Assembly (NCBI GenBank): GCA_964470065.1
Contig: CAYYAR010000004.1
Location: 26,329 to 90,328, forward strand
Reading direction: 5' to 3'
Length of the DNA stretch: 64,000 nt
Source of the DNA: an uncultured Verrucomicrobiota bacterium
GTDB taxonomy: Bacteria; Verrucomicrobiota; Kiritimatiellia; CAIVKH01
Below are positions 34,272-48,836 of the stretch, piece by piece; positions within the stretch are counted from its first letter, which is position 1, and each line of letters opens with the position of its first letter. The position numbers were made by a program, and so were the translations under genes. The notes under the pieces were generated by a model. It saw only the letters and a program-made list of their open reading frames with translations. It searched no databases and was not told where the DNA came from.

Positions 34272-34933
34272 GACACACCCTCTCCCGGCGATCTGTTTTT
34301 GTTCCGGTCAAACCTGCTTTCGCGCCCGCCGAGCAGCCGGAGAATGTTGGAGCGGTGGCGGATGATCACCAGAAAAACCAGGAGGGACAGAACCGAGGGC
34401 AAGAGCAGCGTATCTTGCGCGTAGCGCCACCATCCGACGCCGGCGACGACCAGCGCGGCAATAATCGAGGCGAGCGAGACATAGCGTGTGAGCTTGAAGG
34501 CAATTCCCCAACTTGCCAGTCCGAAGATCGCGGCGAAAGGCGCCATCCCGATCAAGGCGCCGGCGCTGGTGGCTACACCCTTGCCGCCCTTGAAGCGAAG
34601 ATACACCGGAAAGCTGTGCCCGATCACCGCGGCCACGCCGCAAAAAATCCCCAGTGCCACCGGATCCAGGTTGGTCATGGGCAATCGATTTGCGATCGGC
34701 GGCAATACATCCACCGGCAGCCATCCCTTCAGCGCATCCAGCGCGAAGGTGGCCAACCCGGCCTTTTTGCCCAGGATGCGCATGACGTTGGTCGCCCCGA
34801 TGTTGCCGCTGCCAAATTGGCGGATATCGATGCCGTGATACCGGGCGATGAATAATCCAAATGGTATGGCGCCAATCAGGTAGGCGAGCACAATCATAAT
34901 CACGTCCACGAGATGGGGCATGGCAATGTTCAT
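34268..34933 (-). CDS. plsY: Glycerol-3-phosphate acyltransferase PlsY
   Basis: IGAIPFG...QFGSGNIGATN motifs; the start is trimmed to MNIAMPHL. Confidence 0.9.
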   Translation of the reverse strand: MNIAMPHLVDVIMIVLAYLIGAIPFGLFIARYHGIDIRQFGSGNIGATNVMRILGKKAGLATFALDALKGWLPVDVLPPIANRLPMTNLDPVALGIFCGVAAVIGHSFPVYLRFKGGKGVATSAGALIGMAPFAAIFGLASWGIAFKLTRYVSLASIIAALVVAGVGWWRYAQDTLLLPSVLSLLVFLVIIRHRSNILRLLGGRESRFDRNKNRSPGEGVS

Positions 34934-35631
34934 GGTTTTCCTGTTTCCACCCAACGCACGGCTTCGCGCAACATTTGCGCGGCGTCTTCGCAGCCGAGTT
35001 TCTTTTTGATGTTTGCGCGATGCACCTCCACGGTGCGTTCGCTCAAGTTGAATTTCTCGGCGATCTTCCGGGTCGAAAGCCCGTCGCCGACACACTCGAA
35101 AATTTCCCGCTCGCGCTCGGTGAGCGACGCCACGCCGGCGGCGCCGGATTTTTCACCGGAGGAAAGCTGGCGAATCAGGCGGCTCGACATCGCGGGGCTC
35201 ACATACAGTTCACCGGAAAGCACGTGGCGGATGGCGCTCACGATCACCTCGTCGGCATCCTCTTTCATCACATAGCCGCGCGCGCCGGCGCGAAGAGCCC
35301 GGTCCGCATATTCCGCTTCATCGTGCATCGAGAGCACCAGCGCGCGCACGTCCGGAACGCGGGTGCGCATTTCGCGGATGAGCTCAAGGCCGTTGCGGTC
35401 CTTGAGGGTGATGTCGACGACGGCGACGTCCGGTTGTTCCGCGGCGGCCAGCGCGAGGGCTTCGTCGTAGGTCCCCGCCTCACCGCAGACCGACATGTCC
35501 TGTTCCTTGTTTAAGAGCATGGCCAGGCCGTGCCGGACGATGGAATGATCATCGATGACGATGATGCGATGCGGAGTTGTCGGATGGTTGACCACAATCT
35601 GAAGTATGGCGAGCGGCAGGGGGTGGAGCAA
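34930..35631 (-). CDS. Two-component response regulator, NarL/LuxR family (REC + LuxR HTH)
   Basis: REC domain (IVIDDHSIVRHGL...DVAVVDITLKDRNGLEL) and a LuxR-type HTH (LTEREREIFECVGDGLSTRKIAEKFNLSERTVEVHRANI). Confidence 0.9.
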   Translation of the reverse strand: MLHPLPLAILQIVVNHPTTPHRIIVIDDHSIVRHGLAMLLNKEQDMSVCGEAGTYDEALALAAAEQPDVAVVDITLKDRNGLELIREMRTRVPDVRALVLSMHDEAEYADRALRAGARGYVMKEDADEVIVSAIRHVLSGELYVSPAMSSRLIRQLSSGEKSGAAGVASLTEREREIFECVGDGLSTRKIAEKFNLSERTVEVHRANIKKKLGCEDAAQMLREAVRWVETGKP

Positions 35632-35748: not shown

Positions 35749-37407
35749 TCAATACTGGCATTCGACCCGCACTCCGCCGTCCCGGCGCCGCTCGAACTCC
35801 ACGCGCCCCCCGAACATGCTCGCGCGAAATTGCATGATGCGCAGGCCCATGCCTCCGGACTGGGTGGCGTTCGGGTCCAGGCCCTTGCCGTTGTCTTCAA
35901 TCGTCAACTCGCCTTTGTCGCCGCGCCGCGACCATTCGATGATGACCTCGGTGGCCTGACCATGACGTACCGCATTGGTTACCGCCTCCATCGCGATGGC
36001 ATAGAGATGGTGGGCCACTTTATTTGCCGGCGCCGGCGCCTCCTCGTGCGGATGAAATACACAGGTGATTCCGTATACCGAGGAGGTTTCCTCCGCCAGT
36101 CGTCCGAGCGCACCGGCAAGACCCTCCTGGCCCAGTTCCACCGGTGACAGCCCCCGCGCCATGCGTCGCACCTGCGCTACCGACTCCTTTAGGATTTCGT
36201 TGATGCGCATGGACTGTCGACGGACTTCCTCGTCGGCGTGGCCGGGGTGATCGCTCAAGGCCCGGCTCAAAAAAACCGCGCCGGTGAGTTTCTGGCCCAA
36301 CGAGTCGTGCAGGTCCTGGCCGACCTGTTGCTTTTCCCGGTCGCTGATTTCCAAAATGTCCCGCTCCAGGCGCATGCGTTCTTTCATGGATGCTTCGAGT
36401 TCACGCGTGCGCTCCTGCACCGCAGCCTCGATGCGCACCGTTCGTCCGGCCAGCGTCCAGATCACCATCGACAACAGCAGGGTGCTGACGCTGCCGGAAA
36501 GTAAAATCAGGTGTGGCATCATGGTTGGTCGCGCGGCGAGGTATTCCGGCGCGGCGCGCGTTTCGAAGGTCCATTCGCGATCCGCCACCGTGATGGGAGC
36601 GGTGTGGGCCACCTCCTGCGTGGACGGGGCGTCGCCCGGCCAGGTCTCGTCGAAGAACCGGACCAGGATGTCGTTGGGCGCCACATCGGCAAGGGCGCGT
36701 TCGAGGATGATCTGCGGCCATAGAATCGACACCGTGAAGCCGGACAATCTGGCTTCGACTATGCCCGGCGAATCAAACAACGGCGAGAAGACGAAGTAGC
36801 CATCCTGATCTTGCGGGTCTTTGATGCGCAACGAGCGGGCGATTGAAGGTCCGCGCCGGCTTTCCATGGTGAAAATCGCTTCCGCGGCGCCGGGCAACGC
36901 CGCCATGTCTATCCCGTTGGGAAAACTCAACGCGCCTTCCGGTTGCTGGGAAACGAGGGGAAAGTATTCCGGCCGGGCGCCGGCGATGATCATCCGGCCA
37001 TCCGGGCCCGGCTCGGTGATGTCGGCAAAAAAACCGCCGCCCGCCTTCATTTCCTCGCGCAGGGCGTGAGGTAAGCGTTGCACGAAACCATACGCGTTTA
37101 GCAGCCGGCGCTGGAATTGCATGCCCTTCGCGGCGAACTCCTCGAAGTCCTCCATGCTGATGCGGTCCGACAACTCGCGCAGGGCGCCGATCGAATTCAG
37201 CACGTCAAAGAAAAGCGCCAGTTGGCGCGCCACCGACTGCCGCATAGCTTCGGACTCCGCCGTGAACACGCGCATCACTTCCCGCTCGTGGCGCTTTTCA
37301 GCGATGCGGGCGGCGAGGAGGGTTGCGCCAATACCGGCGAGCAGCACGGAAAGCGCGAAAATGCGGGCGAAGCGCGACGTGCTGCGTTGGGATGACGGTG
37401 AGACCAT
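35749..37407 (-). CDS. Sensor histidine kinase (HisKA_3 type, NarX/DegS-like) with a periplasmic sensor domain
   Basis: HDSLGQKLTG H-box and an HATPase_c C-terminus. The start is trimmed to MVSPSS (the ORF begins at 37560). Same operon as the LuxR-family regulator. Confidence 0.8.
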   Translation of the reverse strand: MVSPSSQRSTSRFARIFALSVLLAGIGATLLAARIAEKRHEREVMRVFTAESEAMRQSVARQLALFFDVLNSIGALRELSDRISMEDFEEFAAKGMQFQRRLLNAYGFVQRLPHALREEMKAGGGFFADITEPGPDGRMIIAGARPEYFPLVSQQPEGALSFPNGIDMAALPGAAEAIFTMESRRGPSIARSLRIKDPQDQDGYFVFSPLFDSPGIVEARLSGFTVSILWPQIILERALADVAPNDILVRFFDETWPGDAPSTQEVAHTAPITVADREWTFETRAAPEYLAARPTMMPHLILLSGSVSTLLLSMVIWTLAGRTVRIEAAVQERTRELEASMKERMRLERDILEISDREKQQVGQDLHDSLGQKLTGAVFLSRALSDHPGHADEEVRRQSMRINEILKESVAQVRRMARGLSPVELGQEGLAGALGRLAEETSSVYGITCVFHPHEEAPAPANKVAHHLYAIAMEAVTNAVRHGQATEVIIEWSRRGDKGELTIEDNGKGLDPNATQSGGMGLRIMQFRASMFGGRVEFERRRDGGVRVECQY

Positions 37408-37599
37408 GGATGGCAGTATAGCGGCCAGGCGGGGGCCATGGGATGTTTTTTTAATCACCCCGGCGTCCTTTCCAGGTCCAAACCATCTTGCTTCGTCCGG
37501 TAAACAGCGGCCGGCTCCCGGGCGACCTGCGGTTTCTGCTTGATGCTTTCGACGTCCCAAGGTTTTTGAATGCGCGACCCGCCGAGAAAAAAACAGACA

Positions 37600-38250
37600 T
37601 CCCGCAAATCGCTGACCTGCTGGAGTCGCTTTGAAATCGCCTTGGGCGACATGTCAACCGCTGACATTTGGCTCACCACTCAATTTTTCTACATAGTCAC
37701 GATCCAAGCCAGATCCTTGGCGCGTCCGGTGACACGTTTGTTTTTGGTGTAAGCGGTTTTCTCGATGAAGTGAACGGGAACATCCCCATAGTGCCCGTTT
37801 TCCTTGCCGGCCACCGCCACCTCCCGGGTTATTCCGGTAAGCGAGGTAATAATGTATTAACGAACCGGAGGCACGCCCAACTGAACAACCTGCTCCGGCG
37901 TTTGAAAATCACCCGCGGTCAGGCCCAGCGACCCAAAGCCAAAATCGTTCAGCGCCTGAAGCACGTGCGCGGCGTTTTCCGGGGTTGCGCGCACCAGCAG
38001 GTAGATGTCACCGGTAAAACGGGGCGCGCCGTGAAAGGCGAGGGCGTAGACGCCCATGACCAGATACTCAACCTCGCGAGCGTTATACAACGCGAGCACT
38101 ACTTTGAAGTCGGGCTGTGTTTCAATGAAATTGACGCCTTAAACGTTCAACCGCGTCGAGTCGTTGGGCCGGCGATTGTGCAAGCCAAAACGCGAGACTC
38201 ACGCGCACATCACCCTCGGAGCACAAGGGCACTCGTTTGATCACCGGCTC
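37600..38250 (-). pseudogene. Decayed type II TA module (MntA-like nucleotidyltransferase plus HepT/HEPN-like remnants)
   Basis: Minus-strand frames broken by stops. ...AQRLDAVERLRRQFH* then ...LAFHGAPRFTGDIYLLVRATPENAAHVLQALNDF (minimal-nucleotidyltransferase-like GS/ARG...DIDLLV pattern) then ...KENGHYGDVPVHFIEKT (HEPN R/KxxxxHxY-like). Lower GC than the surrounding DNA. Confidence 0.35.
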
Positions 38251-38513
38251 TATCACGCACGCAGCTTATCCGGCTAAAACAATCAGGAAAGGCGCAAAAC
38301 CCGGAAAGAATGGCCGCCGCGAATCGGCTGATCTCTCCTGACTTCAACAATGGGATTCCCCGACGTACATGTATTCGGGAATCAGCTTGCGGAGAATCCG
38401 GGTGTTGATTTTTTCCTCATCTATCCGCCACCTGCGGCGGAAAAAATTTAAACTGTTCTCCCTCAACATCTTGTGCAACAGATAAAAAATATCAAAAAAT
38501 CCTGAACTACGTA

Positions 38514-38542
38514 TTGACACGTAGAGGCGCTAAGGGTTATCA
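38514..38542 (+). promoter_or_regulatory. Candidate sigma-70-like promoter (TTGACA-N17-TTATCA) upstream of the island's first gene
   Basis: A -35 hexamer TTGACA with 17-bp spacing to TTATCA, ~90 bp upstream of the start at 38632, in an AT-rich region. Confidence 0.3.
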
Positions 38543-38631
38543 ATTACAAGCATGCGAGCACGTAAAGTCTTTGCATAATTTCATGGACGAAACGAAACGA
38601 ACAGTATTAAATGCGTAACGTTGGAGAAAAA

Positions 38632-39315
38632 ATGAAAAAAATAACCGCTACACTATTGGGCACGCTGATTGCAAGTTCAGCCGCGCTCGCTCAGACCAAC
38701 CAGGTTTTGAGCCGAAATGCCGTGGGGTATGTGAAAATCAATGTGCCAGCCAGCAACAGCTTGGCTCTTGTCAGCAATCCGTTTGTAGCGTTGGACGAAG
38801 GAAGTGCTCGTATAACAAACGTATTTGCAAGTTTGGTGAACAACAGCACAGTTTCTGTATGGAACGAAGCCAGTCAAAGTTACCTTAATTACGCGAAAAA
38901 CAGTCGCGGTGGTTGGGTTGGTACAGGCGTTACAACTGTGCAGTTTGCCAGAGCTGACGCAGCATTCATCAGGTCTGCAGGAACTTCAACAGTGTTCTTC
39001 ATGGGCGAAGTCCCTGATTCAACTACTGCACCCACGACCACTCAATCGAGAGCTGCCGGGATCACAATGCTTGGAAATCCCTATCCGGTTGAGGTAGCAG
39101 TCACAAATTCATCAATCGGGTTGAGTCTGCCCGCCGGTGGTACAATTAGTATTTGGAATAGCGTTAGTAATAAATACGACAACTTTGCCAAAAACTCCCG
39201 CGGTGCTTGGGTCGGTACGATCACGGCGACAATAAAACCTGGAGACGGACTTGTTATTCGTGCAACCAATGCTACTGCGAACTTTTCAACGACAAAACCC
39301 TACAATTGGCCATAG
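38632..39315 (+). CDS. Secreted protein with two tandem ~95-aa repeats (unknown family)
   Basis: GGAG Shine-Dalgarno 6 nt upstream; signal peptide MKKITATLLGTLIASSAALA. Internal duplication (SNPFVALDEG...SVWNEASQSYLNYAKNSRGGWVGTGVTT versus GNPYPVEVAV...SIWNSVSNKYDNFAKNSRGAWVGTITAT). Lower GC. Confidence 0.65.
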   Translation: MKKITATLLGTLIASSAALAQTNQVLSRNAVGYVKINVPASNSLALVSNPFVALDEGSARITNVFASLVNNSTVSVWNEASQSYLNYAKNSRGGWVGTGVTTVQFARADAAFIRSAGTSTVFFMGEVPDSTTAPTTTQSRAAGITMLGNPYPVEVAVTNSSIGLSLPAGGTISIWNSVSNKYDNFAKNSRGAWVGTITATIKPGDGLVIRATNATANFSTTKPYNWP

Positions 39316-39333
39316 AATCATGGAGGAAAAAAT

Positions 39334-39942
39334 ATGAAAAAAACATCACTAATCATTGCGCTTCTTACAACTCTGTCGTTAAACGCCCAAGCTGGAATCA
39401 ATGTTCTGGTTTCTGGTCTTACGGGATTTTATCGTTCTGATGACACCACGGGTTTGTTGCAAGCGCCCGGCGGCCTTAATGGCTGGATACAATTTATTTA
39501 CTCCACAACAGGAGTAGTTGCCGGACCTGCTGGAATCGGAGGCACTGTAGACGGGAGCGAGTCCATTCTCGATCAGTTTGGTCTAACAAACGCCGGTAAC
39601 TCAGACGATTACGGAACTTTTGTTTACGGTTTAGTTGCTCCGCAGACAACCGGTTTTTGGTACGCTCGGTTATTCGAAGGCGGAAGTTCCACTACCGGAG
39701 CATCAGCCGATAATATCACCGCAGGTACATGGTACTATGAAAGCGCTGTTTATGCTGTGATTAACAACACAGACCCCGCTTCACCAGACGCCCAGTCAAT
39801 TCAAGGAAATAATCCTACCATTCTTCAAACTGCATTCGGTGGCGACTTCGTGAACTACCAAGTCGTTCCTGAGCCTTCCGTCCTTGCCTTCTTAGGCCTT
39901 GGAGGTTTGGCTTTGGCGGCTCGCCGTCGCTTCATCGCTTAA
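39334..39942 (+). CDS. PEP-CTERM sorting-signal secreted protein
   Basis: Signal peptide MKKTSLIIALLTTLSLNAQA; the C-terminus VVPEPSVLAFLGLGGLALAARRRFIA has the VPEP motif, a hydrophobic stretch and basic residues (exosortase signal). Lower GC. Confidence 0.8.
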   Translation: MKKTSLIIALLTTLSLNAQAGINVLVSGLTGFYRSDDTTGLLQAPGGLNGWIQFIYSTTGVVAGPAGIGGTVDGSESILDQFGLTNAGNSDDYGTFVYGLVAPQTTGFWYARLFEGGSSTTGASADNITAGTWYYESAVYAVINNTDPASPDAQSIQGNNPTILQTAFGGDFVNYQVVPEPSVLAFLGLGGLALAARRRFIA

Positions 39943-39970
39943 TCAGCGATTTTGTTTATGGCCATTTGAA

Positions 39971-39998
39971 AGCGCCCTCTCCGGAGGGCGCTTTTTTG
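39971..39998 (+). terminator. Rho-independent terminator after the PEP-CTERM gene
   Basis: AGCGCCCTC-TCCG-GAGGGCGCT followed by TTTTTT. Confidence 0.7.
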
Positions 39999-40035
39999 TT
40001 TTCCAACCGCGTCTCCCGCATTAACCTCATCGACT

Positions 40036-42984
40036 ATGTTTTGGATATCCATCGTCTTCTTTTTATCCGGCCTCTCCGCGCTGGTGTACCAACTGCTCTG
40101 GATGCGCCACCTCGGATTCATCTTTGGCAATACCATCTATGCCAGCGCGACCGTGTTAACCGCGTTCATGGGTGGCTTGGCGATTGGTTCGCATCTATTT
40201 GGTCGTTGGGCGGAGCGGCTTAAGGATCCGCTGAAAGCATTTGCCATTCTCGAGTGGGTCGTGGCCGCTTATGCCGTTCTGCTTCCGTTCCTCTTTTATG
40301 GCCTACAGCTTGTCTACCGGATGGCCTATCAATCGATTTCCCAGGAACTGATTTTTCTTACGCCACTACGTTTCATTCTTGCTGTCATCATTCTTTTGAT
40401 TCCGACCATCGCGATGGGTGGCACCTTGCCGGTATTGATTCGCGGGCTGGCGCATGACGAACCGAACTTTGGTTCGCGTCTCGGCTGGCTTTACGGCGTG
40501 AATACACTGGGCGCGGTGGCCGGTGTTTTCCTGAGCGGATTTTACCTTATCCCGGCGATCGGGCTGACCAACACCAATCTGCTCGCCGCCGCGACGGATT
40601 TAATTGCCGGCATTGGCGCGTGGCTCATCGCTTCGCGGCACCGCGTGCCTCATACCGATTATCAGGAACCCAAGCGTGCCTCGTACCCGTGGCGAAGCAT
40701 GACGTTCAACTCGCGCTATGCGGTCGTGGTGGCGACGTTTTGCGGATTCATCTCGCTGGCGCTCGAAGTTATCTGGTTCCGCGCGCTGATCCTCGTTTTC
40801 GGTTCCACCACATATTCTTTCACGGTGATGTTGGGCGTGTTCCTGCTCGGCATCGCGCTGGGTTCACTGTTGATCGCTCCTTTTCTTGACCGGATGAAAT
40901 TGCTGGTTCCCGCGCTCGCCGCGACACTCGTTCTCATCGGTGGTTACACGCTCTGGTCGATGTATCGCTTTGATGGCGGACCGGAATTTTTGTTGAATTA
41001 TCTAAATCAGCGCTCGTTCACGTGGTCGGCCATGAATCAGGCGCGGTTTATAATCGCGGTTTCTCATCTGGCCGTTCCCGCGTTGCTTTTCGGAATTAGC
41101 TTCACCATCGCAACTCGCATCGTGCGTCGCGATGAATCAAGCTCATCTGCTGCGGTCGGCATGGTTTACGCGCTCAATACCATCGGTGCGGTTGCGGGTT
41201 CATTCGCAGGCGGATTCCTCATGCTGCCGAATCTCGGGATGGAGGGCTCTCTGCTTGTTATTGCCGGTGCGGCATCGTTATCCGGCTTTGTTTCGCTGAT
41301 CCTTTGGGGTGGTGCCATCCCGATGCGTCTGGCCGCCGGCGCTGGTACCCTAGCATTAGCTTTGTATGTTATCTTTTTTCCACCGGTTTGGAACAAGACG
41401 GTGCTTTCCGCGGGCGCTTTCTTCGGGGCGTTTAACTTTGTTTCCGAAGGCAAAATCATTTTCCGCGAAAAGGTTCTTGCTGATCGTTTGCTTCATTACC
41501 GGGAGTCGATAGCCTCGACCGTTTCCGTGCACATCAGTGAGGATGAGCAGAAGTATTTTTGCGTGGATGGAAAAACCGAAGCCGACCAAGGCACCCGCGG
41601 CATGGTTGTTCAACGGATGATCGGTCACCTGCCGATGTTGTTTCATCCGAACGCAAAGAAAGCCATGAATCTTGGACTTGGTGCCGGAGTGAGCTTTGGC
41701 GCCTTGGGGTGCCATCCTCTCGATCATCTCGAAGTCGTCGAAATTGAGCCCGCAGTATCGATAGCCGCCAAGGTTTGGGGAGATTTGAATCACAACATTC
41801 TCGATAATCCCAAGGCAATAGTCACCGTGAATGACGGACGCAATCATCTTTTTTGCACCACAAATTACTACGATGTCATTACGTCCGACCCGTTTGAGCC
41901 AGTTGTCGGAGGGGCTGGCCATCTTTTCACCGTGAACCATTTCAAGAATGCCAAACAGCGCCTGAACGATGGCGGCATCATGTGCCAGTGGATCCCGATG
42001 TATGAGATGACCTCCGAGGATTATCTGACGATTGTGCGGTCGTTTGTGTCGGTATTTCCTCAGACGACACTTTTCTATACGGGTTTTGACACGCTGCTTC
42101 TCGGGTTCAAAGATGAGATGCGGCTGGACCCGGAAGTTTTGCGGCGTAATTTTGAGATACCGGCCGTGAAAGCCTCGCTGGCGGATGTAGGATTTACGTC
42201 GCCCGAAATGATTTTGGGGATGTTCGTAGCGGACTTGAGCAAAATGCCGGAGTTTACCGGTTCTGGACCGGTGAACACCGATGACAAACCGATTATTGAG
42301 TTTTCCACACCCAAGAGCCAGCTACGTTACACGACCGACGAAAATCAGGCCGCGCTGCTAGCTCATTTCACGCCGATTCCTGATGTTTGGCTTGATGGCC
42401 TCGACGACGCCACGTCTCAGCAATTAAAGCAGGAGCATGAGGCGGTTCGTCTTATGCTGGAATCGGGAGTTTTGCGGGCGAGGGGAGACACTGAGAAAGC
42501 CTTTATGCAGCTCGCGAAGGCGAATGAGATTTCACCGGCCAATCCGGTAGTTAAAAATGAGATGGTGGCGATGCTGACGGTTTCGGCTCAGACGTTGCGC
42601 AAGAGCGGGGAGCGGGATGAGGCGGCGCGACAATTCCAGACGGCGTTGCAGTTGGATCCGGGTGATTTTTGGTCGCTGTATTATCTGGTCGAACTGGGAA
42701 TGCAGGCGGGGCAGGTGGAGTTTGCCGGGAAGATGCTGGAGGAGGCGGTGGCGCGTTATCCGGAGTCGCCGCTGGTAAAGGGGTTGAAGGCGAAATATTT
42801 GTTCACGCAGGGCGATCAGGCCAGTGCGTTTGAGTTCTTCAAGCAGGCCGTGATTGAACAGCCCGGAAGCCGGATGTTGTGGAATGATTTCATGCGGGTG
42901 GCAATGGCGGCGGGTGACCAAGTCCTCACCGCGTATGCGCAACAGAATCTCGACCGGTTGAATGCGTATATCGAGGGGAAATAA
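40036..42984 (+). CDS. Fused polytopic membrane (MFS-like) / spermidine-synthase-like / TPR protein
   Basis: 982 aa. ~13 TM N-terminal domain (MFWISIVFFLSGLSALVYQLLWMRHLGF...). The central domain resembles aminopropyltransferases, retaining the DVITSDPFEPVVGGAGHLFT block (compare E. coli SpeE DSTDPIGPGESLFT), but the Gly-rich dcSAM motif is changed to NLGLGAGVSFGALG. C-terminal TPR-like helical repeats. Confidence 0.85.
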   Translation: MFWISIVFFLSGLSALVYQLLWMRHLGFIFGNTIYASATVLTAFMGGLAIGSHLFGRWAERLKDPLKAFAILEWVVAAYAVLLPFLFYGLQLVYRMAYQSISQELIFLTPLRFILAVIILLIPTIAMGGTLPVLIRGLAHDEPNFGSRLGWLYGVNTLGAVAGVFLSGFYLIPAIGLTNTNLLAAATDLIAGIGAWLIASRHRVPHTDYQEPKRASYPWRSMTFNSRYAVVVATFCGFISLALEVIWFRALILVFGSTTYSFTVMLGVFLLGIALGSLLIAPFLDRMKLLVPALAATLVLIGGYTLWSMYRFDGGPEFLLNYLNQRSFTWSAMNQARFIIAVSHLAVPALLFGISFTIATRIVRRDESSSSAAVGMVYALNTIGAVAGSFAGGFLMLPNLGMEGSLLVIAGAASLSGFVSLILWGGAIPMRLAAGAGTLALALYVIFFPPVWNKTVLSAGAFFGAFNFVSEGKIIFREKVLADRLLHYRESIASTVSVHISEDEQKYFCVDGKTEADQGTRGMVVQRMIGHLPMLFHPNAKKAMNLGLGAGVSFGALGCHPLDHLEVVEIEPAVSIAAKVWGDLNHNILDNPKAIVTVNDGRNHLFCTTNYYDVITSDPFEPVVGGAGHLFTVNHFKNAKQRLNDGGIMCQWIPMYEMTSEDYLTIVRSFVSVFPQTTLFYTGFDTLLLGFKDEMRLDPEVLRRNFEIPAVKASLADVGFTSPEMILGMFVADLSKMPEFTGSGPVNTDDKPIIEFSTPKSQLRYTTDENQAALLAHFTPIPDVWLDGLDDATSQQLKQEHEAVRLMLESGVLRARGDTEKAFMQLAKANEISPANPVVKNEMVAMLTVSAQTLRKSGERDEAARQFQTALQLDPGDFWSLYYLVELGMQAGQVEFAGKMLEEAVARYPESPLVKGLKAKYLFTQGDQASAFEFFKQAVIEQPGSRMLWNDFMRVAMAAGDQVLTAYAQQNLDRLNAYIEGK

Positions 42985-43054
42985 ACCGGCGAGAGACAAA
43001 GGGGCCGCGTCGAGGATAAGATTTCCAGAGGTTGGAAAAATCACCTCCAAAAAT

Positions 43055-43075
43055 TTCCAATGATTGGAATTTTTT
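43055..43075 (+). terminator. Weak AT-rich hairpin plus T-run terminator after the fused gene
   Basis: TTCCAA-TGA-TTGGAA followed by TTTTTT. Confidence 0.4.
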
Positions 43076-43381
43076 GTAACCATCATCGTATGGCGCGAAA
43101 ATGGCTATTCGTCTTTACCCGTCCATCCCCCGAAAACCTTAGATAATAGCTCGATCCTGCTCCAACCGGTATGACGGCTGTTCCTGCTCCGGAGCAGGCG
43201 CGTTTCTGATCAGCGTAATTTTTCGAAGCGGGTTCCGCTTCCGGGTTTGATCCGAAGGTACCCGGCCCGGAAAGCCGGGCCGCTCCAACGTGGTCGTGCA
43301 TGCTACGCGCTTGGTCGCGACCCATGAGTAGCGAACGATGGTGTTTTGGTGTAATCCGCTCCGCCTAATCGCGATGCACCC

Positions 43382-45613: not shown

Positions 45614-47383
45614 TCAGCGCTGCGGCCAACGCGGGCGGTCGGTGAGAAATATCTGATCGCGGCCGCTGATACGCAGCGCTTCGGTGAGCGGAAAGTCCGC
45701 CGGAATCATCTCGCGGAAGATGGGGTACCACGAGCTGTAAGGGCCGGTCATTAAACTGCTGACATAAGGCAAGTCGCGGGTAAGCGTGGTGAAGTAAAGG
45801 CCGCCGATCCGCTTTTGCATGTCGTTGATGCGGTAAAATTCCTCGATGGTGTTGGGGATGAGCAGGGAGCTGCGATCGCCATACCACGCGGTTGCCCAGG
45901 GCATATCGGTTCCCAGCAGTTCATCTGCGGTCATCATGTTGCAGACCATCGATACATAGGTCGGGTAGTAAGGCGGGTAGGGGTATCCGCTGCGGGGGGG
46001 CATCAGCTTCAAGATTAACGGCACCGCGGTAAGCAAGATCAGCAATCCGATCAGACCTGTTCGCAACACCGGAATGGCAATCTGCATGCGGTCGAGCAAC
46101 AGATAGAAAAAGGCGAGCCCGTACAAAATGATGAAGGGACGAAAGATCGCCATGGCCCGGAGGCTTGAGTTGTCAAACAGGCACGCGACAAGAAACAGGC
46201 CGATCATCGCGGCAAGCATGGCAAAGCGCAGAACATGCACCTGATTGCGGGCGAACCGGAAGAAGAACATCGCGATGAACAAGGCGGCGAGGATACCGTT
46301 GTTCGAGGACGAAAGCACCGTGTCGTAATGGCGGGCGATGTTACTCGTCCACTTTGTTTTGAGGGCATCGCCGGCGCCGGAGGGGAGGGGATTGCCGGTT
46401 CGTTCGAACGAATGGGTGATGGCCGGGCTGTCGATGTTGTGCACCAGTTGCGGCGTGAGGCCGAACGGTTTGCCGCAGACCTGGATATTGCGAATGATCC
46501 ATGGCGATACAAACAGCGCGGTTAACGCGAGAAATGCGAGGGCAATTTTCCATCCGCGTTGCGGAATCAAAAAGGTGATCAGCAAACCGCACGCCACCAG
46601 CATCCATCCGGCGGAGTAACGGGTCAGAAAGGCAAGTGCGCAGGCCAGGCTGGCGAGCGTGAAGGGCAGAATCCATCGCCAAGTCACGGCGCCGTCAGAG
46701 GTCCGCTCGATGGCGACAAGGGTGAGATAAACGGCCAGGGTGGTAAGGAGCGTGGCCAGCGAAACACTGAGGCCGGATATACCGTCCGCCCAAACCTGAT
46801 CGGAAACAAAAAACAGGGTGGTGGCGATAAGGGCCAGGCGCGGCTCGAAAAAGCGGCGACCAATCAAAAAGATCAGCAGCCCGGTCAGGATGGTCGCTAC
46901 ATTGCCCACCGGCACAATCGCCCATTGTTCGGGGGGATAAGCCCGAACCTTCTGGCCGGCGTCAAATGATCCGCCCACCCACAGATATGCCTTCGACAAG
47001 ATCCACGGATAAACCGGCGGATGCACGATATCCGGTTGTTGGAGCATGATGCCCGGGGATTCCAGGCCGTGCTGATCAAATACGCGCAACGCGGCCGGGC
47101 GAATAACCTTGGTCGAGAACGATCCATCGGTCATCAATTGGCGGGCAATTTGCGCCTGGTCCATCGCCTCGGCTTCCTTTAGCCCCCAGAACTCGGACAG
47201 CCAGTACAGCGACATCAGAGTGATGACGAAAAACACGTACAGGGCGAGTTTGATGAACTGGCTGCCGACGCCCTCGTCCACATTGTAAATCAGATCCTGA
47301 ACGCGGGACTCGAAGCTCTTGTGGACATTGACTGTCTCTGACTTCACGAGACGGACTTTATACGGCGGCGATGAGGTCGGCAA
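45614..47383 (-). CDS. GT-C fold membrane glycosyltransferase (ArnT/PMT-like, GT39/83-type)
   Basis: 589 aa, ~12 TM. The first periplasmic loop carries a DE motif (YNVDEGVG). Long loops and overall architecture of polyprenol-P-sugar-dependent GT-C enzymes. Confidence 0.65.
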   Translation of the reverse strand: MPTSSPPYKVRLVKSETVNVHKSFESRVQDLIYNVDEGVGSQFIKLALYVFFVITLMSLYWLSEFWGLKEAEAMDQAQIARQLMTDGSFSTKVIRPAALRVFDQHGLESPGIMLQQPDIVHPPVYPWILSKAYLWVGGSFDAGQKVRAYPPEQWAIVPVGNVATILTGLLIFLIGRRFFEPRLALIATTLFFVSDQVWADGISGLSVSLATLLTTLAVYLTLVAIERTSDGAVTWRWILPFTLASLACALAFLTRYSAGWMLVACGLLITFLIPQRGWKIALAFLALTALFVSPWIIRNIQVCGKPFGLTPQLVHNIDSPAITHSFERTGNPLPSGAGDALKTKWTSNIARHYDTVLSSSNNGILAALFIAMFFFRFARNQVHVLRFAMLAAMIGLFLVACLFDNSSLRAMAIFRPFIILYGLAFFYLLLDRMQIAIPVLRTGLIGLLILLTAVPLILKLMPPRSGYPYPPYYPTYVSMVCNMMTADELLGTDMPWATAWYGDRSSLLIPNTIEEFYRINDMQKRIGGLYFTTLTRDLPYVSSLMTGPYSSWYPIFREMIPADFPLTEALRISGRDQIFLTDRPRWPQR

Positions 47384-47462: not shown

Positions 47463-48836
47463 TCAGCCTTGATCATCTCCGCGCAATCCGTACTCGTTGA
47501 GTTTGCGGTGGAGGGTGCGCCGGCTGATGCCGAGTTGCTCGGCCGCCTTGGTCCGATTGTCGTTGCTGGCCTTCAGCGCTTTGATGATGAGGTTCTTTTC
47601 CGCCTGCTCCATGGAGAGCGGCAAGGCCCCGCCGTTTCCGCTCGAAGCTCCCGCTCCGGCGCGCTCGCGGATTTCCGGGGGAAGATCCCGCAAGGTGATG
47701 CGGCGATTGCGGGTAAGCACCACCATGCGCTCAACGGCGTTGCGCAGCTCGCGGACATTGCCCGGCCAGGGATAGGCCTGCAGGGCCTGGATCGCATCGG
47801 GCGTGATGGCCTCGATCTCGCGGTGATTGTCGCGGGTGCTTTGCTGGAGAAAATGATTCAGCAGGAGCGGAATATCGCCGGCGCGCTCGCGCAACGGCGG
47901 CAGCCGCAGCACCACCACGAACAGGCGATAGAATAAATCCTCGCGAAATTTGCCCTGATCCATCATCTCGCGAAGATTCCGGTTCGTCGCGGCAATCAGG
48001 CGCGTGTCGGTCTCGATGGTTTCCTGCCCGCCGACGCGTTCGAAGGCGCGCTCCTCAAGCACGCGCAAAATTTTCACCTGGATGGCGGCGTCGATCTCGC
48101 CGATTTCATCGAGAAACAAACTGCCGCCGTCGGCCATTTCGAAGCGGCCGCGCCGTCGCTCGGTGGCCCCGGTGAAGGCGCCTTTTTCATGACCAAACAA
48201 CTCGCTCTCGAGAAGGTTGGCGCTGAGGGCCGCACAATGCACCGCCACAAACGGGCCCTTCGTGCGTGTGCTCAGGCGATGGATCGCGTGGGCGACGAGT
48301 TCCTTGCCGGTGCCGCTCTCCCCTTCGATGAGGACGGTGGCTCGGGTGTCGGCCACTTGCTTGATGGTATCGAACACGTCCTGCATCGCGGAGGATTGAC
48401 CGATAATGCTTTCGAGGCCGTACTTGGAATTGAGTTGTTCGCGCAGCGAGCGATTTTCCTGTTCGACATCGCGTGTGCGCAGCGCCTGTTTCAGGGTAAT
48501 GTCGAGCTGATCGAGGTTGATTGGTTTGGTCATGAAATTATAGGCGCCGCGCCGCATGGCCTCCACCGCCATGTCGATTGATCCGTAGGCGGTCAGCATG
48601 ATGCAGACGGGCGGATGGGGCAGGGCGAGGACGCGTTGGAGCAAGACCAGACCATCCATGCCGGGCATGCGGACATCGCTGAGCATCGCATCGACTTTTT
48701 CTTTCTGGAGAATTTCGAGCGCGCGGTTTCCGTTTTCGGCGAGAAGGGTGGCGTAGCCCCGCTGCAAGGCGCGGGCGATCCCTTCGCGGGCGTTCTTTTC
48801 GTCGTCGACAATCAGGATGACTGGCTTGGCGCTCAT
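47463..48836 (-). CDS. Sigma-54-dependent response regulator (NtrC family)
   Basis: REC domain, AAA+ sigma-54 activator domain (GESGTGKE Walker A, GAFTGA motif) and a C-terminal Fis-type HTH. Confidence 0.9.
   Translation of the reverse strand: MSAKPVILIVDDEKNAREGIARALQRGYATLLAENGNRALEILQKEKVDAMLSDVRMPGMDGLVLLQRVLALPHPPVCIMLTAYGSIDMAVEAMRRGAYNFMTKPINLDQLDITLKQALRTRDVEQENRSLREQLNSKYGLESIIGQSSAMQDVFDTIKQVADTRATVLIEGESGTGKELVAHAIHRLSTRTKGPFVAVHCAALSANLLESELFGHEKGAFTGATERRRGRFEMADGGSLFLDEIGEIDAAIQVKILRVLEERAFERVGGQETIETDTRLIAATNRNLREMMDQGKFREDLFYRLFVVVLRLPPLRERAGDIPLLLNHFLQQSTRDNHREIEAITPDAIQALQAYPWPGNVRELRNAVERMVVLTRNRRITLRDLPPEIRERAGAGASSGNGGALPLSMEQAEKNLIIKALKASNDNRTKAAEQLGISRRTLHRKLNEYGLRGDDQG

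What the first reader, a model, noticed from the sequence alone, without database searches (positions are those of the whole stretch)
38300..43080. Lower-GC ~4.7 kb island: two secreted repeat/PEP-CTERM proteins plus a fused membrane / spermidine-synthase-like / TPR protein
This stretch is visibly more AT-rich than the flanking ~60%+ GC DNA. It has a sigma-70-like promoter and strong Shine-Dalgarno sites, unlike most genes in the window, and both genes end in clean hairpin plus T-run terminators. It encodes three proteins. The first is a signal-peptide protein with two tandem ~95-aa repeats. The second is a PEP-CTERM (VPEP) protein. The third is a 982-aa protein that fuses a ~13-TM domain to an aminopropyltransferase-like domain and a TPR tail. 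On its left border sits a decayed HepT/MntA-like TA remnant, and on its right a cluster of hairpins, after which the high-GC two-component genes resume. This reads as a horizontally acquired cassette whose function is unknown. One candidate is a membrane-bound transferase acting on, or alongside, exosortase-sorted surface proteins; the aminopropyl/SAM chemistry could act on something other than a soluble polyamine.
Basis: partly seen in the sequence, partly recalled or inferred. Interest (0 to 1): 0.75.

Follow-up and report, generated by a model that had tools for sequence, protein, structure and literature searches.

The report
Conserved Kiritimatiellia surface-protein locus, not island
The AT-rich stretch is not foreign DNA but an old, class-wide Kiritimatiellia gene cluster: a tightly controlled two-gene operon for secreted surface proteins, next to its likely two-component regulator and an unusual membrane enzyme of unknown chemistry.

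Summary
The sequence features are real. The window's lowest-GC stretch is at about 38.3-39.7 kb. It holds three ORFs: p1 (227 aa, secreted, two beta-domain repeats, no known family), p2 (202 aa, PEP-CTERM) and p3 (982 aa: MFS fold, SpeE fold, TPR).

The same genes lie at the same place, beside the same GpsA-PlsY-NarL-type RR-CHASE histidine kinase block, in many diverged Kiritimatiellia genomes. Their p1/p2 orthologues are also low in GC3, so the odd composition is an old, maintained trait.

New findings:
- p1-p2 is a self-contained operon. An invariant 16-bp palindrome, TACGTATTGACACGTA, has NarL-like 7-2-7 geometry and carries the -35 box. It lies 87-179 nt upstream of p1 in 30 loci. A strong terminator follows p2 in 10 of 10 loci.
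- The palindrome co-occurs with the adjacent two-component system.
- p3 is transcribed separately but is linked to p1-p2 across the class. In relatives a TMEM260/PMT-like GT-C/TPR protein often follows it.
- p3's SpeE-like domain keeps invariant nucleotide-binding and acidic residues. It has lost the Asp and Tyr needed for dcSAM aminopropyl transfer, and it is predicted to face the periplasm.

Function remains inferred: a regulated surface-protein module with periplasmic modifying enzymes.

The parts
34930..35631 (-). NarL/LuxR-type response regulator (Response_reg + GerE HTH). It is the candidate binder of the p1 operator.
   Evidence: Pfam Response_reg 85.7 bits and GerE 64.7 bits. Best NCBIfam hits are MctR, MadR and NarL, all below equivalog cutoffs. 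Orthologues lie next to p1 in many loci.
35749..37560 (-). Sensor histidine kinase with a periplasmic CHASE domain, HisKA_3 and HATPase_c. It is divergent from p1.
   Evidence: Pfam CHASE 44.4 bits, HisKA_3 44.3 bits, HATPase_c 46.1 bits. Orthologues at 36-57% identity lie 200-1300 nt upstream of p1 in at least 14 loci.
37700..38110 (-). Interrupted reading frame, probably a pseudogene, between the HK and the p1 promoter. It is not part of the conserved unit.
   Evidence: The frame is broken by a stop ('...QLGVPPVR*YIITSLTGI...'). No Pfam hit at E<=1. In L004 an unrelated 23S_rRNA_IVP gene sits at this spot, and in most loci nothing does.
38508..38523 (+). Invariant 16-bp palindromic operator TACGTAT-TG-ACACGTA (7-2-7 inverted heptamers) that contains the -35 box TTGACA (38514-38519).
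   Evidence: It occurs once in the window, against 0.05 expected. The exact match occurs once in each of 30 loci, always on the p1 strand and 87-179 nt upstream of the p1 ATG. It co-occurs with the adjacent TCS (19/9/0/9, Fisher p=4e-4). In metagenomes p1 is the only recurrent downstream gene. The NarL 7-2-7 geometry is described in PMC4549865.
38537..38543 (+). -10 box of the distal promoter (TTATCAA; family consensus GGG-TAnnnT, 17-18 nt after TTGACA).
   Evidence: Extended consensus from 28 loci. TAnnnT is present at 17/18-nt spacing in 11 of 13 p1-linked metagenome hits, against 19 of 107 others.
38584..38610 (+). Possible second, proximal promoter (TGGACG ... TATTAA).
   Evidence: Conserved blocks 'nTnGACa' and 'TAnAAn' in the alignment of 22 upstream regions. 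Status uncertain.
38632..39315 (+). p1: a 227-aa secreted protein with two tandem ~95-aa beta domains. Invariant VLSxNAVGY near the mature N-terminus, MGEVPD linker, C-terminal KPYxWP. It belongs to an unannotated family.
39334..39942 (+). p2: a 202-aa secreted PEP-CTERM protein (VPEP at residues 178-181, hydrophobic helix, RRRF tail).
   Evidence: PF07589 26.0 > 20.7 and TIGR02595 19.2 > 16. P-E-P and RR are invariant in 8 orthologues. Not related to p1 beyond the signal peptide.
39968..40002 (+). Intrinsic terminator that ends the p1-p2 transcription unit.
   Evidence: 12-bp stem with 7 GC pairs plus a T-run. -24.3 kcal/mol, z=-5.05. An equivalent hairpin plus T-run lies 20-40 nt after the p2 stop in 10 of 10 loci, whatever gene follows.
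40036..41385 (+). p3 membrane domain: an MFS fold made of two duplicated 6-helix halves, plus a 13th helix.
41386..42405 (+). p3 SpeE-fold domain with an altered cofactor site: GLGAGV instead of GGGDGG, V-Q-R instead of Y-(H/Q)-E, and acidic pair D618/E621 retained.
42406..42984 (+). p3 C-terminal TPR domain.
   Evidence: TPR_19 55.6 bits and TPR_14 42.7 bits. All-helical repeats 791-979 in AF2.

Best explanation
The low-GC stretch is the window's copy of an old, vertically inherited cell-envelope locus of the class Kiritimatiellia.

Its core is a two-gene operon. p1 is a secreted protein built of two small beta domains. p2 is a small PEP-CTERM protein. The operon has its own invariant promoter/operator and its own strong terminator. 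It sits beside a CHASE-sensor histidine kinase and a NarL-type response regulator. A third gene, p3, is transcribed separately. In relatives p3 is usually followed by a GT-C (TMEM260/PMT-like) glycosyltransferase with a TPR tail.

Proposed working:
1. The kinase senses an extracytoplasmic cue. The phosphorylated regulator binds the 7-2-7 palindrome TACGTAT-TG-ACACGTA, which overlaps the -35 box, and sets p1-p2 transcription. (Inferred.)
2. p1 and p2 are made in large amounts and exported by Sec. (Signal peptides, strong ribosome binding sites and the terminator are shown; abundance is inferred.)
3. p2 is processed and anchored through its PEP-CTERM signal by an exosortase encoded elsewhere. 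(Inferred.)
4. p3 is an MFS-fold transporter of the amine/drug-exporter type. It is fused through a 13th helix to a SpeE-fold domain and a TPR domain, both predicted to lie in the periplasm. It acts there on the exported proteins or on the polymer or lipid they attach to. The transporter half supplies a small amine-type substrate or cofactor. The chemistry is not canonical dcSAM aminopropyl transfer. (Architecture, residue changes and gene linkage are shown; compartment, substrate and target are inferred.)

The A/U-ending codon usage of p1-p2 is a long-maintained property of these genes, probably tied to their expression, and not a mark of foreign origin.
For: Vertical, conserved locus.
- p3 has full-length orthologues at 43-80% identity across Kiritimatiellia, including Pontiella. 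p1 has 141 homologues, nearly all from Kiritimatiellia or 'Verrucomicrobia' MAGs.
- The order GpsA-PlsY-RR-HK | p1 | p2 | p3 | GT-C/TPR is seen in L004, L044 and L047. Variants are seen in L005, L006, L009, L013, L018, L045 and L046.
- Among 37 loci with a full p1, an HK and/or RR is adjacent in 19, p3 is within 5 kb in 11, and the GT-C/TPR gene is within 6 kb in 16. L047 adds one more to each count.
- Low GC (13 of 14 loci, window included) and low GC3 (13 of 13 relatives) of p1/p2 are conserved.

Operon definition.
- The exact 16-mer occurs once in the window (0.05 expected) and once in each of 30 loci, 87-179 nt upstream of p1.
- Terminator after p2 in 10 of 10 loci.
- p1 and p2 share the same GGAG-A5-ATG start region.

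Regulator link.
- The RR has a GerE/NarL-type HTH.
- The site has NarL 7-2-7 geometry and TAC...GTA ends (PMC4549865).
- Operator and TCS co-occur, with none of the 9 operator-less loci having the TCS (Fisher p=4e-4).
- In metagenomes the operator is dedicated to p1.

Surface-protein character.
- Sec signal peptides, no Cys or His, Thr/Ser/Asn/Gly-rich composition.
- PEP-CTERM domain above both thresholds and invariant in orthologues.

p3.
- 13 TM helices and positive-inside bias in 30 of 30 orthologues.
- Invariant GxGAGV, E569, D600-G601 and D618/E621, but the loop Asp is Ala and the Tyr is Val/Leu.
- Mutating that Asp abolishes aminopropyl transfer in two characterised enzymes (PMC3725402).
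Against: - No exosortase gene was found in the 64-kb window or in about 700 kb of related loci. The sorting step rests on the motif alone.
- Binding of the adjacent RR to the palindrome is untested. The palindrome centre, about -33 relative to the distal promoter, fits a repressor at least as well as an activator. A second promoter-like element closer to p1 leaves the promoter architecture ambiguous.
- The link between p3 and p1-p2 is not universal. In L001 (p3 74% identical) p3 lies among polysaccharide genes with no p1-p2 within 10 kb. In L006 and L018 it is on the far side of the TCS block.
- Pontiella, L046 and six further loci lack both the operator and the TCS.
- A periplasmic AdoMet-fold domain has no obvious cofactor supply. 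The topology is a prediction.
- High expression is not shown. The one ribosomal-protein control (rplS in L001) shows no clear GC3 drop.
- Congruence of p1 with GpsA divergence is only weak (Mantel r=0.30, 149 of 5000 permutations).
Confidence: 0.55

Rival explanations
1. One reading: the 4.7-kb stretch is a recently acquired foreign cassette inserted between two-component genes.
For: Lowest GC in the window, and GC3 0.42-0.45 against 0.69-0.78 elsewhere. An interrupted ORF lies on the left border.
Against: The same genes lie at the same locus in relatives down to about 30-40% p1 identity. The compositional anomaly is itself conserved and tracks each genome's GC with an offset. There are no bracketing direct repeats, no adjacent tRNA and no integrase. 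The regulatory DNA is shared class-wide.
Confidence: 0.03
2. p3 is functionally independent of p1-p2. It is a membrane-bound polyamine enzyme coupled to an MFS exporter that makes or modifies a polyamine and exports it. Its nearness to p1-p2 is inherited gene order without a shared function.
For: It is separated from p1-p2 by a strong terminator. It is unlinked in L001 and lies across the TCS block in L006 and L018. The best MFS matches are amine/drug exporters such as VMAT2, VAChT and NorA. The acidic amine-binding pair D618/E621 is invariant. In L046, genes resembling carboxyspermidine dehydrogenase and decarboxylase lie 5-8 kb downstream.
Against: p3 stays within 5 kb of p1-p2 in 12 diverged lineages, in at least three different arrangements, including Pontiella. 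That is more than expected from drift of gene order at 44% identity. The dcSAM-specific Asp and the Tyr are lost. All SpeE equivalog scores are far below cutoff. The enzyme domain is predicted to be outside the cytoplasm. The TPR tail suggests a protein partner.
Confidence: 0.22
3. p1-p2 are not structural surface proteins. They are a regulated periplasmic or outer-surface binding or sensing pair, for example glycan-binding proteins, induced by the CHASE kinase in response to a substrate.
For: Kiritimatiellia are polysaccharide specialists (my own knowledge). p1 consists of two small beta-sandwich-like domains with weak resemblance to cupin or lectin-like folds. The pair is under dedicated TCS control.
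Against: There is no match to any carbohydrate-binding or solute-binding family. The pair is not next to glycoside hydrolases or transporters in the loci examined. The linkage is to GT-C/TPR and p3, not to catabolic genes. PEP-CTERM proteins are typically matrix or surface components.
Confidence: 0.12
4. The conserved palindrome is only an unusually strong promoter, or is bound by a regulator other than the neighbouring RR. The adjacent TCS regulates something else.
For: It contains a perfect TTGACA with a -10 box at 17 nt. Nine loci have the motif but no TCS within reach.
Against: Twelve invariant bases flank and extend the hexamer symmetrically in the 7-2-7 pattern. Sigma-factor contacts alone do not explain that. 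None of the 9 loci without the motif has the TCS. Many of the 'motif only' loci are short contigs.
Confidence: 0.2

Closest known systems
PEP-CTERM/exosortase protein-sorting systems. The example is the Zoogloea PepA floc protein, controlled by the PrsK/PrsR two-component system (NCBIfam NF033554, TIGR02916, TIGR02915; the biology is from my own knowledge).
   Same: A small, abundant-looking secreted protein with a C-terminal PEP motif, TM helix and Arg cluster, encoded next to a dedicated two-component system. p2 passes the PEP-CTERM domain models.
   Different: The regulator here is a CHASE/HisKA_3 kinase with a NarL-type RR and a sigma-70-like promoter, not PrsK with sigma-54-dependent PrsR. 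p2 is below the cutoff of every named PEP-CTERM subfamily (best FxDxF 28.7 < 50; PepA 20 < 80). It is always paired with the unrelated p1. No exosortase, EpsI or PrsT lies nearby.
NCBIfam NF037959 'fused MFS/spermidine synthase', and membrane-anchored SpeE-like proteins of the PRK03612 type.
   Same: Score above the family cutoff (109.2 > 40). MFS fold plus SpeE fold in one chain.
   Different: The family has no described function that I could find. This clade adds a TPR tail, has a clearly duplicated 6+6 membrane core (E=5e-21) plus a 13th helix, and has GLGAGV instead of GGGDGG.
Spermidine synthase / polyamine aminopropyltransferase (SpeE; PDB 1inl, 1uir, 2o06).
   Different: The loop Asp that binds the aminopropyl amine of dcSAM is an invariant Ala. 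The active-site Tyr is Val/Leu. The second Asp is Glu. The domain is fused to a transporter and predicted to be periplasmic. Equivalog scores are 75 against a cutoff of about 250.
Putrescine N-methyltransferase, a SAM methyltransferase that evolved from spermidine synthase (PMC3725402).
   Same: A SpeE fold in which the GGGDGG Asp is replaced by a hydrophobic residue while the acidic amine-binding site is kept. This is the kind of change that moves the enzyme from dcSAM towards SAM.
   Different: Plant, soluble and cytosolic. p3 keeps the Gln that PMT changes to Thr, and it has an Arg next to it. Methyl transfer by p3 is only a possibility and was not tested.
NarL/NarP 7-2-7 operator sites (PMC4549865).
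   Same: Two inverted heptamers beginning with TAC, separated by 2 bp (TACGTAT-TG-ACACGTA versus TACCCCT-AA-AGGGGTA). A NarL-family RR is encoded next door.
   Different: The heptamer sequence is TACGTRT, not TACYYMT. The site is merged with the -35 hexamer. The organism and the signal (a CHASE sensor) are unrelated to nitrate control.
GT-C protein O-mannosyltransferases with TPR domains (TMEM260, TMTC, PMT; PMC10214176).
   Same: In relatives the cluster includes a ~1050-aa TMEM260_N/PMT_2 + TPR protein beside secreted beta-domain proteins. TMEM260 glycosylates folded beta-sandwich (IPT) domains.
   Different: That gene is not at this locus in the window. Glycosylation of p1 or p2 is conjecture.

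Membership tests
PEP-CTERM sorting-signal proteins (PF07589 / TIGR02595) | Domain HMM score above the curated cutoff | tested here: met
   PF07589 26.0 bits against 20.7; TIGR02595 19.2 against 16.
PEP-CTERM sorting-signal proteins (PF07589 / TIGR02595) | C-terminal P-E-P motif, then a hydrophobic helix, then a basic cluster, together with an N-terminal signal peptide | tested here: met
   p2 has VPEP-SVLAFLGLGGLALAA-RRRF at residues 178-200 and the signal peptide MKKTSLIIALLTTLSLNAQA. P-E-P and RR are invariant in 8 orthologues.
PEP-CTERM sorting-signal proteins (PF07589 / TIGR02595) | An exosortase (EpsH/Xrt) encoded in the same genome | not testable with these tools
   None among 30 window genes scanned, and none among the multi-TM ORFs of about 700 kb of related loci. 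The rest of the genome is not available.
Named PEP-CTERM subfamilies (FxDxF NF038126, PepA NF033554 and others) | Full-length HMM score above the subfamily cutoff | tested here: not met
   Best scores are 28.7 against 50 (FxDxF), 23.7 against 80 and 20 against 80 (PepA).
Fused MFS/spermidine synthase (NF037959) | HMM score above the cutoff | tested here: met
   109.2 bits against 40.
Fused MFS/spermidine synthase (NF037959) | N-terminal domain with the MFS fold | tested here: met
Fused MFS/spermidine synthase (NF037959) | C-terminal SpeE-fold domain | tested here: met
Polyamine aminopropyltransferase (SpeE; TIGR00417, NF002010, NF002956) | Equivalog HMM score above the cutoff | tested here: not met
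   75 against 249.55; 74.3 against 260; 92.4 against 472.
Polyamine aminopropyltransferase (SpeE; TIGR00417, NF002010, NF002956) | GGGDGG loop whose Asp binds the dcSAM aminopropyl amine | tested here: not met
   The loop is GLGAGV, and the Ala is invariant in 30 of 30 orthologues. D103I in Datura SPDS and D101I in T. maritima SpeE abolish or strongly reduce activity (PMC3725402).
Polyamine aminopropyltransferase (SpeE; TIGR00417, NF002010, NF002956) | Catalytic Asp (T. maritima D170) and ribose-binding Glu | tested here: met
   D618 and E569 are invariant.
Polyamine aminopropyltransferase (SpeE; TIGR00417, NF002010, NF002956) | Active-site Tyr of the Y-(H/Q)-E motif | tested here: not met
   The motif is V/L-Q-R in all 30 orthologues.
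Polyamine aminopropyltransferase (SpeE; TIGR00417, NF002010, NF002956) | Cytoplasmic location, giving access to dcSAM | tested here: inconclusive
   13 TM helices and a positive-inside bias in 30 of 30 orthologues predict a periplasmic domain. There is no experimental topology.
Genomic island / recent horizontal acquisition | Composition deviates from the host genome | tested here: met
   GC 0.46-0.49 against 0.59; GC3 0.42-0.45 against 0.69-0.78.
Genomic island / recent horizontal acquisition | Absent from the orthologous site in related genomes | tested here: not met
   Present beside the same HK/RR/PlsY/GpsA block in many relatives. The compositional deviation is also conserved.
Genomic island / recent horizontal acquisition | Insertion hallmarks: flanking direct repeats, a tRNA target, integrase or transposase | tested here: not met
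   No bracketing repeats. The only tRNA is at 87-160. The nearest integrase-family gene is at 24479-25429.
NarL-type 7-2-7 operator | Two inverted heptamers separated by 2 bp, with TAC...GTA ends | tested here: met
   TACGTAT-TG-ACACGTA at 38508-38523; geometry as described in PMC4549865.
NarL-type 7-2-7 operator | Bound by a NarL-family response regulator | not testable with these tools
   Only indirect evidence: an adjacent GerE-type RR and co-occurrence with p=4e-4.
XrtA/PEP-CTERM regulatory and accessory set (PrsK, PrsR, PrsT) | Equivalog HMM scores above the cutoffs | tested here: not met
   Hybrid HK against PrsK: 75.5 against 300. Sigma-54 RR at 47463-48836 against PrsR: 431.4 against 502.6, with AtoC scoring higher. 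p3 TPR against PrsT: 39.3 against 312.2.

The most novel reading that the evidence does not exclude
p3 and its relatives are a new kind of extracytoplasmic transferase. An MFS exporter half delivers an AdoMet-like or amine substrate across the membrane to its own SpeE-fold domain in the periplasm. That domain, positioned by the TPR tail, covalently modifies the exosortase-sorted surface proteins p1/p2 or their glycan or lipid anchor. In most genomes it works together with a neighbouring TMEM260-like protein glycosyltransferase. This would be a previously unknown surface-protein maturation pathway, under a dedicated CHASE/NarL-type switch, shared by a whole bacterial class.
Probability: 0.12. 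Interest if true: 0.85.

Novelty: new variant of a known kind. Interest (0 to 1): 0.5.

Why it matters
Kiritimatiellia are widespread degraders of complex and sulfated polysaccharides in sediments, oceans and guts. Almost nothing is known about their cell surface. This locus gives a concrete, class-wide handle on it:
- An unannotated secreted protein family (p1, about 2,900 clusters at 50% identity) with no recognisable fold relative.
- Its constant PEP-CTERM partner.
- A precisely defined 16-bp operator, with an obvious candidate regulator that can be tested by gel shift.
- A member of the uncharacterised 'fused MFS/spermidine synthase' family whose conserved active site has lost the residues needed for aminopropyl transfer and which is predicted to face the periplasm.

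The case also carries a methodological lesson. A 30-point GC3 drop, usually read as horizontal transfer, can be a conserved property of native genes over the depth of a whole class.

Tried and rejected
- **Conserved RNA structure in the p1 5'UTR.** Hairpins were visible by eye, but RNAalifold on 22 UTRs gave no consensus pairs and Rfam found nothing in the region. Dropped.
- **p1 and p2 as distant homologues.** hhalign matches only the signal peptides.
- **HepT/MntA identity of the left-border remnant.** No Pfam hit at E<=1.
- **Exosortase hunt.** Pfam scans of 30 window genes and of the multi-TM ORFs in related loci found none.
- **Translational selection as the cause of low GC3.** The codon shift (A/U-ending in four-fold boxes, more C-ending for Asp and Tyr) fits. 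The only ribosomal-gene control available (rplS in L001) was uninformative. Left unexplained.
- **A wider regulon for the operator.** In 120 metagenome matches the only recurrent downstream gene with promoter features is p1. The other matches look like background, for example inside release-factor genes.
- **Sigma-54 promoter upstream of p1, as for Zoogloea pepA.** No GG-N10-GC element seen by eye.
- **Direct repeats or insertion scars around the region.** None.
- **Literature.** Searches for the fused family, and for PEP-CTERM or exosortase in Kiritimatiellota, found nothing relevant.
- **Shared TPR origin of p3 and the GT-C/TPR protein.** Only generic TPR similarity (E=0.001).


Full report
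**1. What is in the sequence**

The composition profile shows GC dropping from 0.58-0.66 in the flanks to 0.456-0.486 between 38250 and 39750. GC is 0.50-0.57 over the rest of the region. The lowest 1300-nt stretch of the entire window starts at 38351 (0.462; window mean 0.588, sd 0.031).

Three ORFs fill the region:
- **p1**, 38611/38632-39315. The ATG at 38632, behind GGAG, is the likely start and gives 227 aa.
- **p2**, 39334-39942, 202 aa.
- **p3**, 40036-42984, 982 aa.

p1 has a signal peptide and two internal repeats (36% identity over 72 aa, E=8e-13). It matches no Pfam or NCBIfam model. p2 passes both PEP-CTERM models (PF07589 26.0 > 20.7; TIGR02595 19.2 > 16). p3 passes NF037959 'fused MFS/spermidine synthase' (109.2 > 40), PF01564 (65.2 > 22.9) and TPR models.

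Some sub-claims are weaker:
- p3 is only moderately low in GC (GC3 0.637, against 0.45 for p1 and 0.42 for p2, and 0.69-0.78 for 15 other genes).
- The hairpin after p3 is weak (z=-1.8), whereas the one after p2 is strong (-24.3 kcal/mol, z=-5.05).
- The 'HepT/MntA remnant' is an interrupted minus-strand frame with no family hit.
- The right-hand hairpins are a few short inverted repeats in a convergent intergenic region.

**2. Where it comes from, and whether it is an island**

Homologues of p3 and p1 are named Kiritimatiellia or Kiritimatiellales wherever a source gives a name. p3 has full-length relatives at 43-80% identity, including cultured Pontiella species. The rest of the window carries housekeeping genes (GlnRS, TopA, DprA, KdtA, MurB, RimO, GpsA, PlsY), so this is chromosome.

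Genomic contexts settle the island question.
- In L004 (p3 67% identical) the order is GpsA-PlsY-RR-HK | p1 | p2 | p3 | a 1053-aa TPR protein. This matches the window gene for gene on the left.
- L044 (64%) and L047 (p1 38% identical) show the same order, followed by a TMEM260_N/PMT_2 + TPR protein.
- L006 and L018 (p3 about 48%) carry p3-GpsA-PlsY-RR-HK | p1 | p2 | GT-C/TPR.
- L005 has p1-p2-p3 in a different neighbourhood. The two small genes were simply not called in that record.

A scan of species-representative genomes with a p1 alignment gave 35 loci. A tblastn table covers 37 non-redundant loci with a full p1. It shows the same HK and/or RR adjacent in 19, p3 within 5 kb in 11, and the GT-C/TPR gene within 6 kb in 16. 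A p2-like gene lies directly downstream in most. L047 adds one more to each count.

The compositional anomaly is conserved too. p1 is 5-18 GC points below its flanking genes in 13 of 14 loci, the window included. GC3 of p1/p2 is 7-35 points below neighbours in all 13 relatives, tracking each genome's GC with an offset. No direct repeats bracket the region, and there is no nearby tRNA or mobility gene.

p1 identities correlate only weakly with those of GpsA (Mantel r=0.30, 149 of 5000 permutations). Synteny, not tree congruence, is therefore the main evidence.

**3. The p1-p2 operon and its control region**

Aligning the DNA upstream of p1 across loci revealed an invariant element. The 16-mer TACGTRTTGACACGTA occurs once in the window, at 38508-38523, against 0.05 expected. 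It occurs exactly once in each of 30 loci. It is always on the p1 strand and 87-179 nt upstream of the p1 start, in lineages where p1 itself is only about 30-40% identical.

It is a palindrome of two inverted heptamers separated by 2 bp (TACGTAT-TG-ACACGTA) and contains a perfect -35 hexamer. Seventeen nucleotides further on lies GGG-TAnnnT. Many loci have a second short palindrome (TACGnGTA) in between, and an A/T-rich tract lies upstream.

NarL-family output domains prefer exactly this 7-2-7 geometry, and such sites can either activate or repress (PMC4549865). The neighbouring regulator is a Response_reg + GerE protein, and its kinase has a CHASE sensor domain.

The operator and the TCS co-occur. 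Nineteen loci have both, 9 have the operator only (many on short contigs), none has the TCS only, and 9 have neither. Fisher p=4e-4, without phylogenetic correction.

A metagenome scan for the exact 16-mer stopped at 120 rows. In 19-20 of 109 usable matches, a p1 homologue lies 102-199 nt downstream. No other downstream gene recurs with promoter features. The element therefore appears dedicated to this operon.

A strong hairpin plus T-run follows p2 within 20-40 nt in 10 of 10 loci, whatever gene comes next. p1 and p2 share the same GGAG-A5-ATG start region. p1-p2 is therefore a discrete bicistronic unit, and p3 is transcribed on its own or by read-through.

A possible second, proximal promoter leaves the exact architecture open. 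A conserved RNA structure in the UTR was tested and not found.

**4. The proteins**

An exhaustive profile search finds 2913 clusters at 50% identity with E<=1e-3 and 239 with E<=1e-30. Nearly all are 215-250 aa. No source gives these proteins a name.

*p2.* The orthologues share a signal peptide, a ~150-aa domain and an invariant P-E-P...RR tail. p2 is unrelated to p1 and scores below the cutoff of every named PEP-CTERM subfamily.

Both proteins lack Cys and His and are rich in Thr, Ser, Asn, Ala and Gly. From my own knowledge, this composition is typical of abundant extracellular structural proteins.

Their codon shift is towards A- and U-ending codons in four-fold boxes, while Asp and Tyr become more C-ending. 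That resembles translational selection more than foreign origin. The single ribosomal-gene control was uninformative, so the cause stays open.

*p3.* The AF2 model (pLDDT 87.6, pTM 0.86) has 13 membrane helices, an alpha/beta domain and a TPR tail.

Loops on the N-terminal side carry 18.4 K+R on average, against 7.5 on the other side, in 30 of 30 orthologues. With 13 helices, this predicts that the SpeE-like and TPR domains lie in the periplasm.

Aligned to T. maritima SpeE, p3 keeps the ribose-binding Glu (E569), the Asp-Gly (D600-G601) and the catalytic acidic pair (D618, with E621 in place of the second Asp). It replaces GGGDGG by GLGAGV and Y-H-E by V-Q-R. All of these residues are invariant in 30 orthologues at 43-80% identity, except the former Tyr position, which is Val or Leu.

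Mutation of the loop Asp abolishes aminopropyl transfer in Datura SPDS and lowers kcat about 2000-fold in the T. maritima enzyme. In the Datura enzyme it gives weak SAM methyltransferase activity (PMC3725402). All SpeE equivalog scores are far below cutoff.

I conclude that p3 belongs to the named fused family and has a selected, nucleotide-binding-type active site, but it is unlikely to be a spermidine synthase.

**5. How it most likely works**

*Shown:*
- A conserved locus.
- A bicistronic p1-p2 unit with an invariant operator/promoter and a terminator.
- An adjacent CHASE kinase and NarL-type regulator that co-occur with the operator.
- A PEP-CTERM signal on p2.
- A separately transcribed p3, linked to the pair in a dozen lineages, with an MFS + altered SpeE + TPR architecture.
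- A GT-C/TPR neighbour in most relatives.

*Inferred:*
- The regulator binds the palindrome and switches p1-p2.
- p1 and p2 are abundant exported envelope or matrix proteins.
- p2 is anchored by an exosortase encoded elsewhere.
- p3, and the GT-C/TPR enzyme where present, act in the periplasm on these proteins or on what they attach to.
- The MFS half feeds the enzyme domain with a small amine-type substrate or cofactor.

TMEM260, the eukaryotic namesake of the neighbouring GT-C domain, is a protein-specific O-mannosyltransferase for folded beta-sandwich domains (PMC10214176). That makes glycosylation of p1/p2 a reasonable guess for relatives. That gene is not at this locus in the window.

*Main weaknesses:*
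- No exosortase in any DNA I could see.
- No binding or expression data.
- p3 is unlinked from p1-p2 in L001.
- Nine loci, including both Pontiella genomes, lack both the operator and the TCS.
- There is no cofactor source for a periplasmic AdoMet-fold domain.

The chief rival for p3 is an independent polyamine-related enzyme-exporter whose adjacency to p1-p2 is only inherited gene order.

**6. Comparison with what is known, and verdict**

The pieces belong to known kinds: PEP-CTERM proteins, the NCBIfam fused MFS/spermidine-synthase family, NarL-type operators and two-component control of a PEP-CTERM protein (as in Zoogloea PepA).

The combination is not described in any paper I could find. 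It consists of:
- the constant unannotated partner p1, with no fold relative;
- the operator merged with the -35 box and conserved across a class;
- the altered SpeE site, predicted to face the periplasm;
- the recurring GT-C/TPR neighbour.

I rate it a new variant of a known kind and of moderate interest (0.5). The island interpretation is wrong. What lies there is a coherent, uncharacterised and readily testable envelope module.

Noticed in passing
window 38584-38610: A second promoter-like pair (TGGACG ... TATTAA) lies closer to p1. It is conserved as 'nTnGACa' and 'TAnAAn' blocks in 22 related upstream regions. This means either tandem promoters, or that the upstream palindrome is a regulator site for this proximal promoter.
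   Followed up: partly
window 38623-38641 and 39325-39343: p1 and p2 have almost the same translation-initiation sequence (GGAG/GGAA-A5-(T)ATG-A6/7, encoding Met-Lys-Lys). This suggests matched, efficient initiation for both cistrons.
   Followed up: no
window 37700-38110 (- strand): A reading frame interrupted by a stop ('...GDIYLLV...QLGVPPVR*YIITSLTGI...') with no Pfam hit. From memory it resembles small nucleotidyltransferase-like proteins. In L004 an unrelated 23S_rRNA_IVP gene sits at the same HK | p1 junction, so this spot seems to tolerate small insertions.
   Followed up: partly
window 47463-50026 (- strand): A sigma-54-dependent response regulator scores 431 bits against the PEP-CTERM-box regulator PrsR model (cutoff 502.6), although AtoC scores higher. 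Next to it are a PAS/HisKA kinase and a 589-aa protein (45614-47383) with no family hit. I did not examine a possible link to PEP-CTERM regulation.
   Followed up: no
L046 17678-21420: About 5-8 kb downstream of p3 in this relative lie UDP-glucose pyrophosphorylase, a saccharopine-dehydrogenase-family gene and an Orn/DAP/Arg-decarboxylase-family gene. The last two resemble the carboxyspermidine dehydrogenase/decarboxylase route to spermidine. This hints that these bacteria make polyamines without SpeE.
   Followed up: no
L010 and L012 (same MAG); L015 10725-12158; L038 9379-11587: The p1-p2 unit can be multi-copy. Two separate p1 loci occur in one MAG. Two tandem p2-like genes occur in L010, L012 and L015. 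Two tandem p1 copies occur in L038.
   Followed up: no
L013 13131-16074: The p3 orthologue matches in two adjoining pieces in different frames (residues 1-276 and 276-979). This is either a frameshift or pseudogene, or an assembly error.
   Followed up: no
window 40036-41385 (p3 residues 1-450): The two halves of the MFS domain are unusually similar for an MFS protein (28% identity, no gaps, E=5e-21). The single-module PRK03612 profile aligns to the second half plus the SpeE domain. This suggests that the 13-TM form arose by duplication of a 6-TM module from a 7-TM ancestor.
   Followed up: partly
window 10467-14876 (- strand): A 1469-aa protein combines GH57, CBM53 (starch-binding) and fibronectin type III domains. 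It is a large secreted or surface glycan-active enzyme, typical of the polysaccharide lifestyle of this group.
   Followed up: no
L003 12979-17288 (Pontiella desulfatans): A DDE transposase and a 688-aa gene lie between p3 and the p1-like/PEP-CTERM pair. In P. agarivorans (L045) the pair follows p3 directly. The insertion therefore looks recent and lineage-specific.
   Followed up: no
L044 19014-22034: A second TMEM260_N + TPR gene lies 6 kb beyond the first. These GT-C/TPR proteins form a small paralogous family in some genomes.
   Followed up: no
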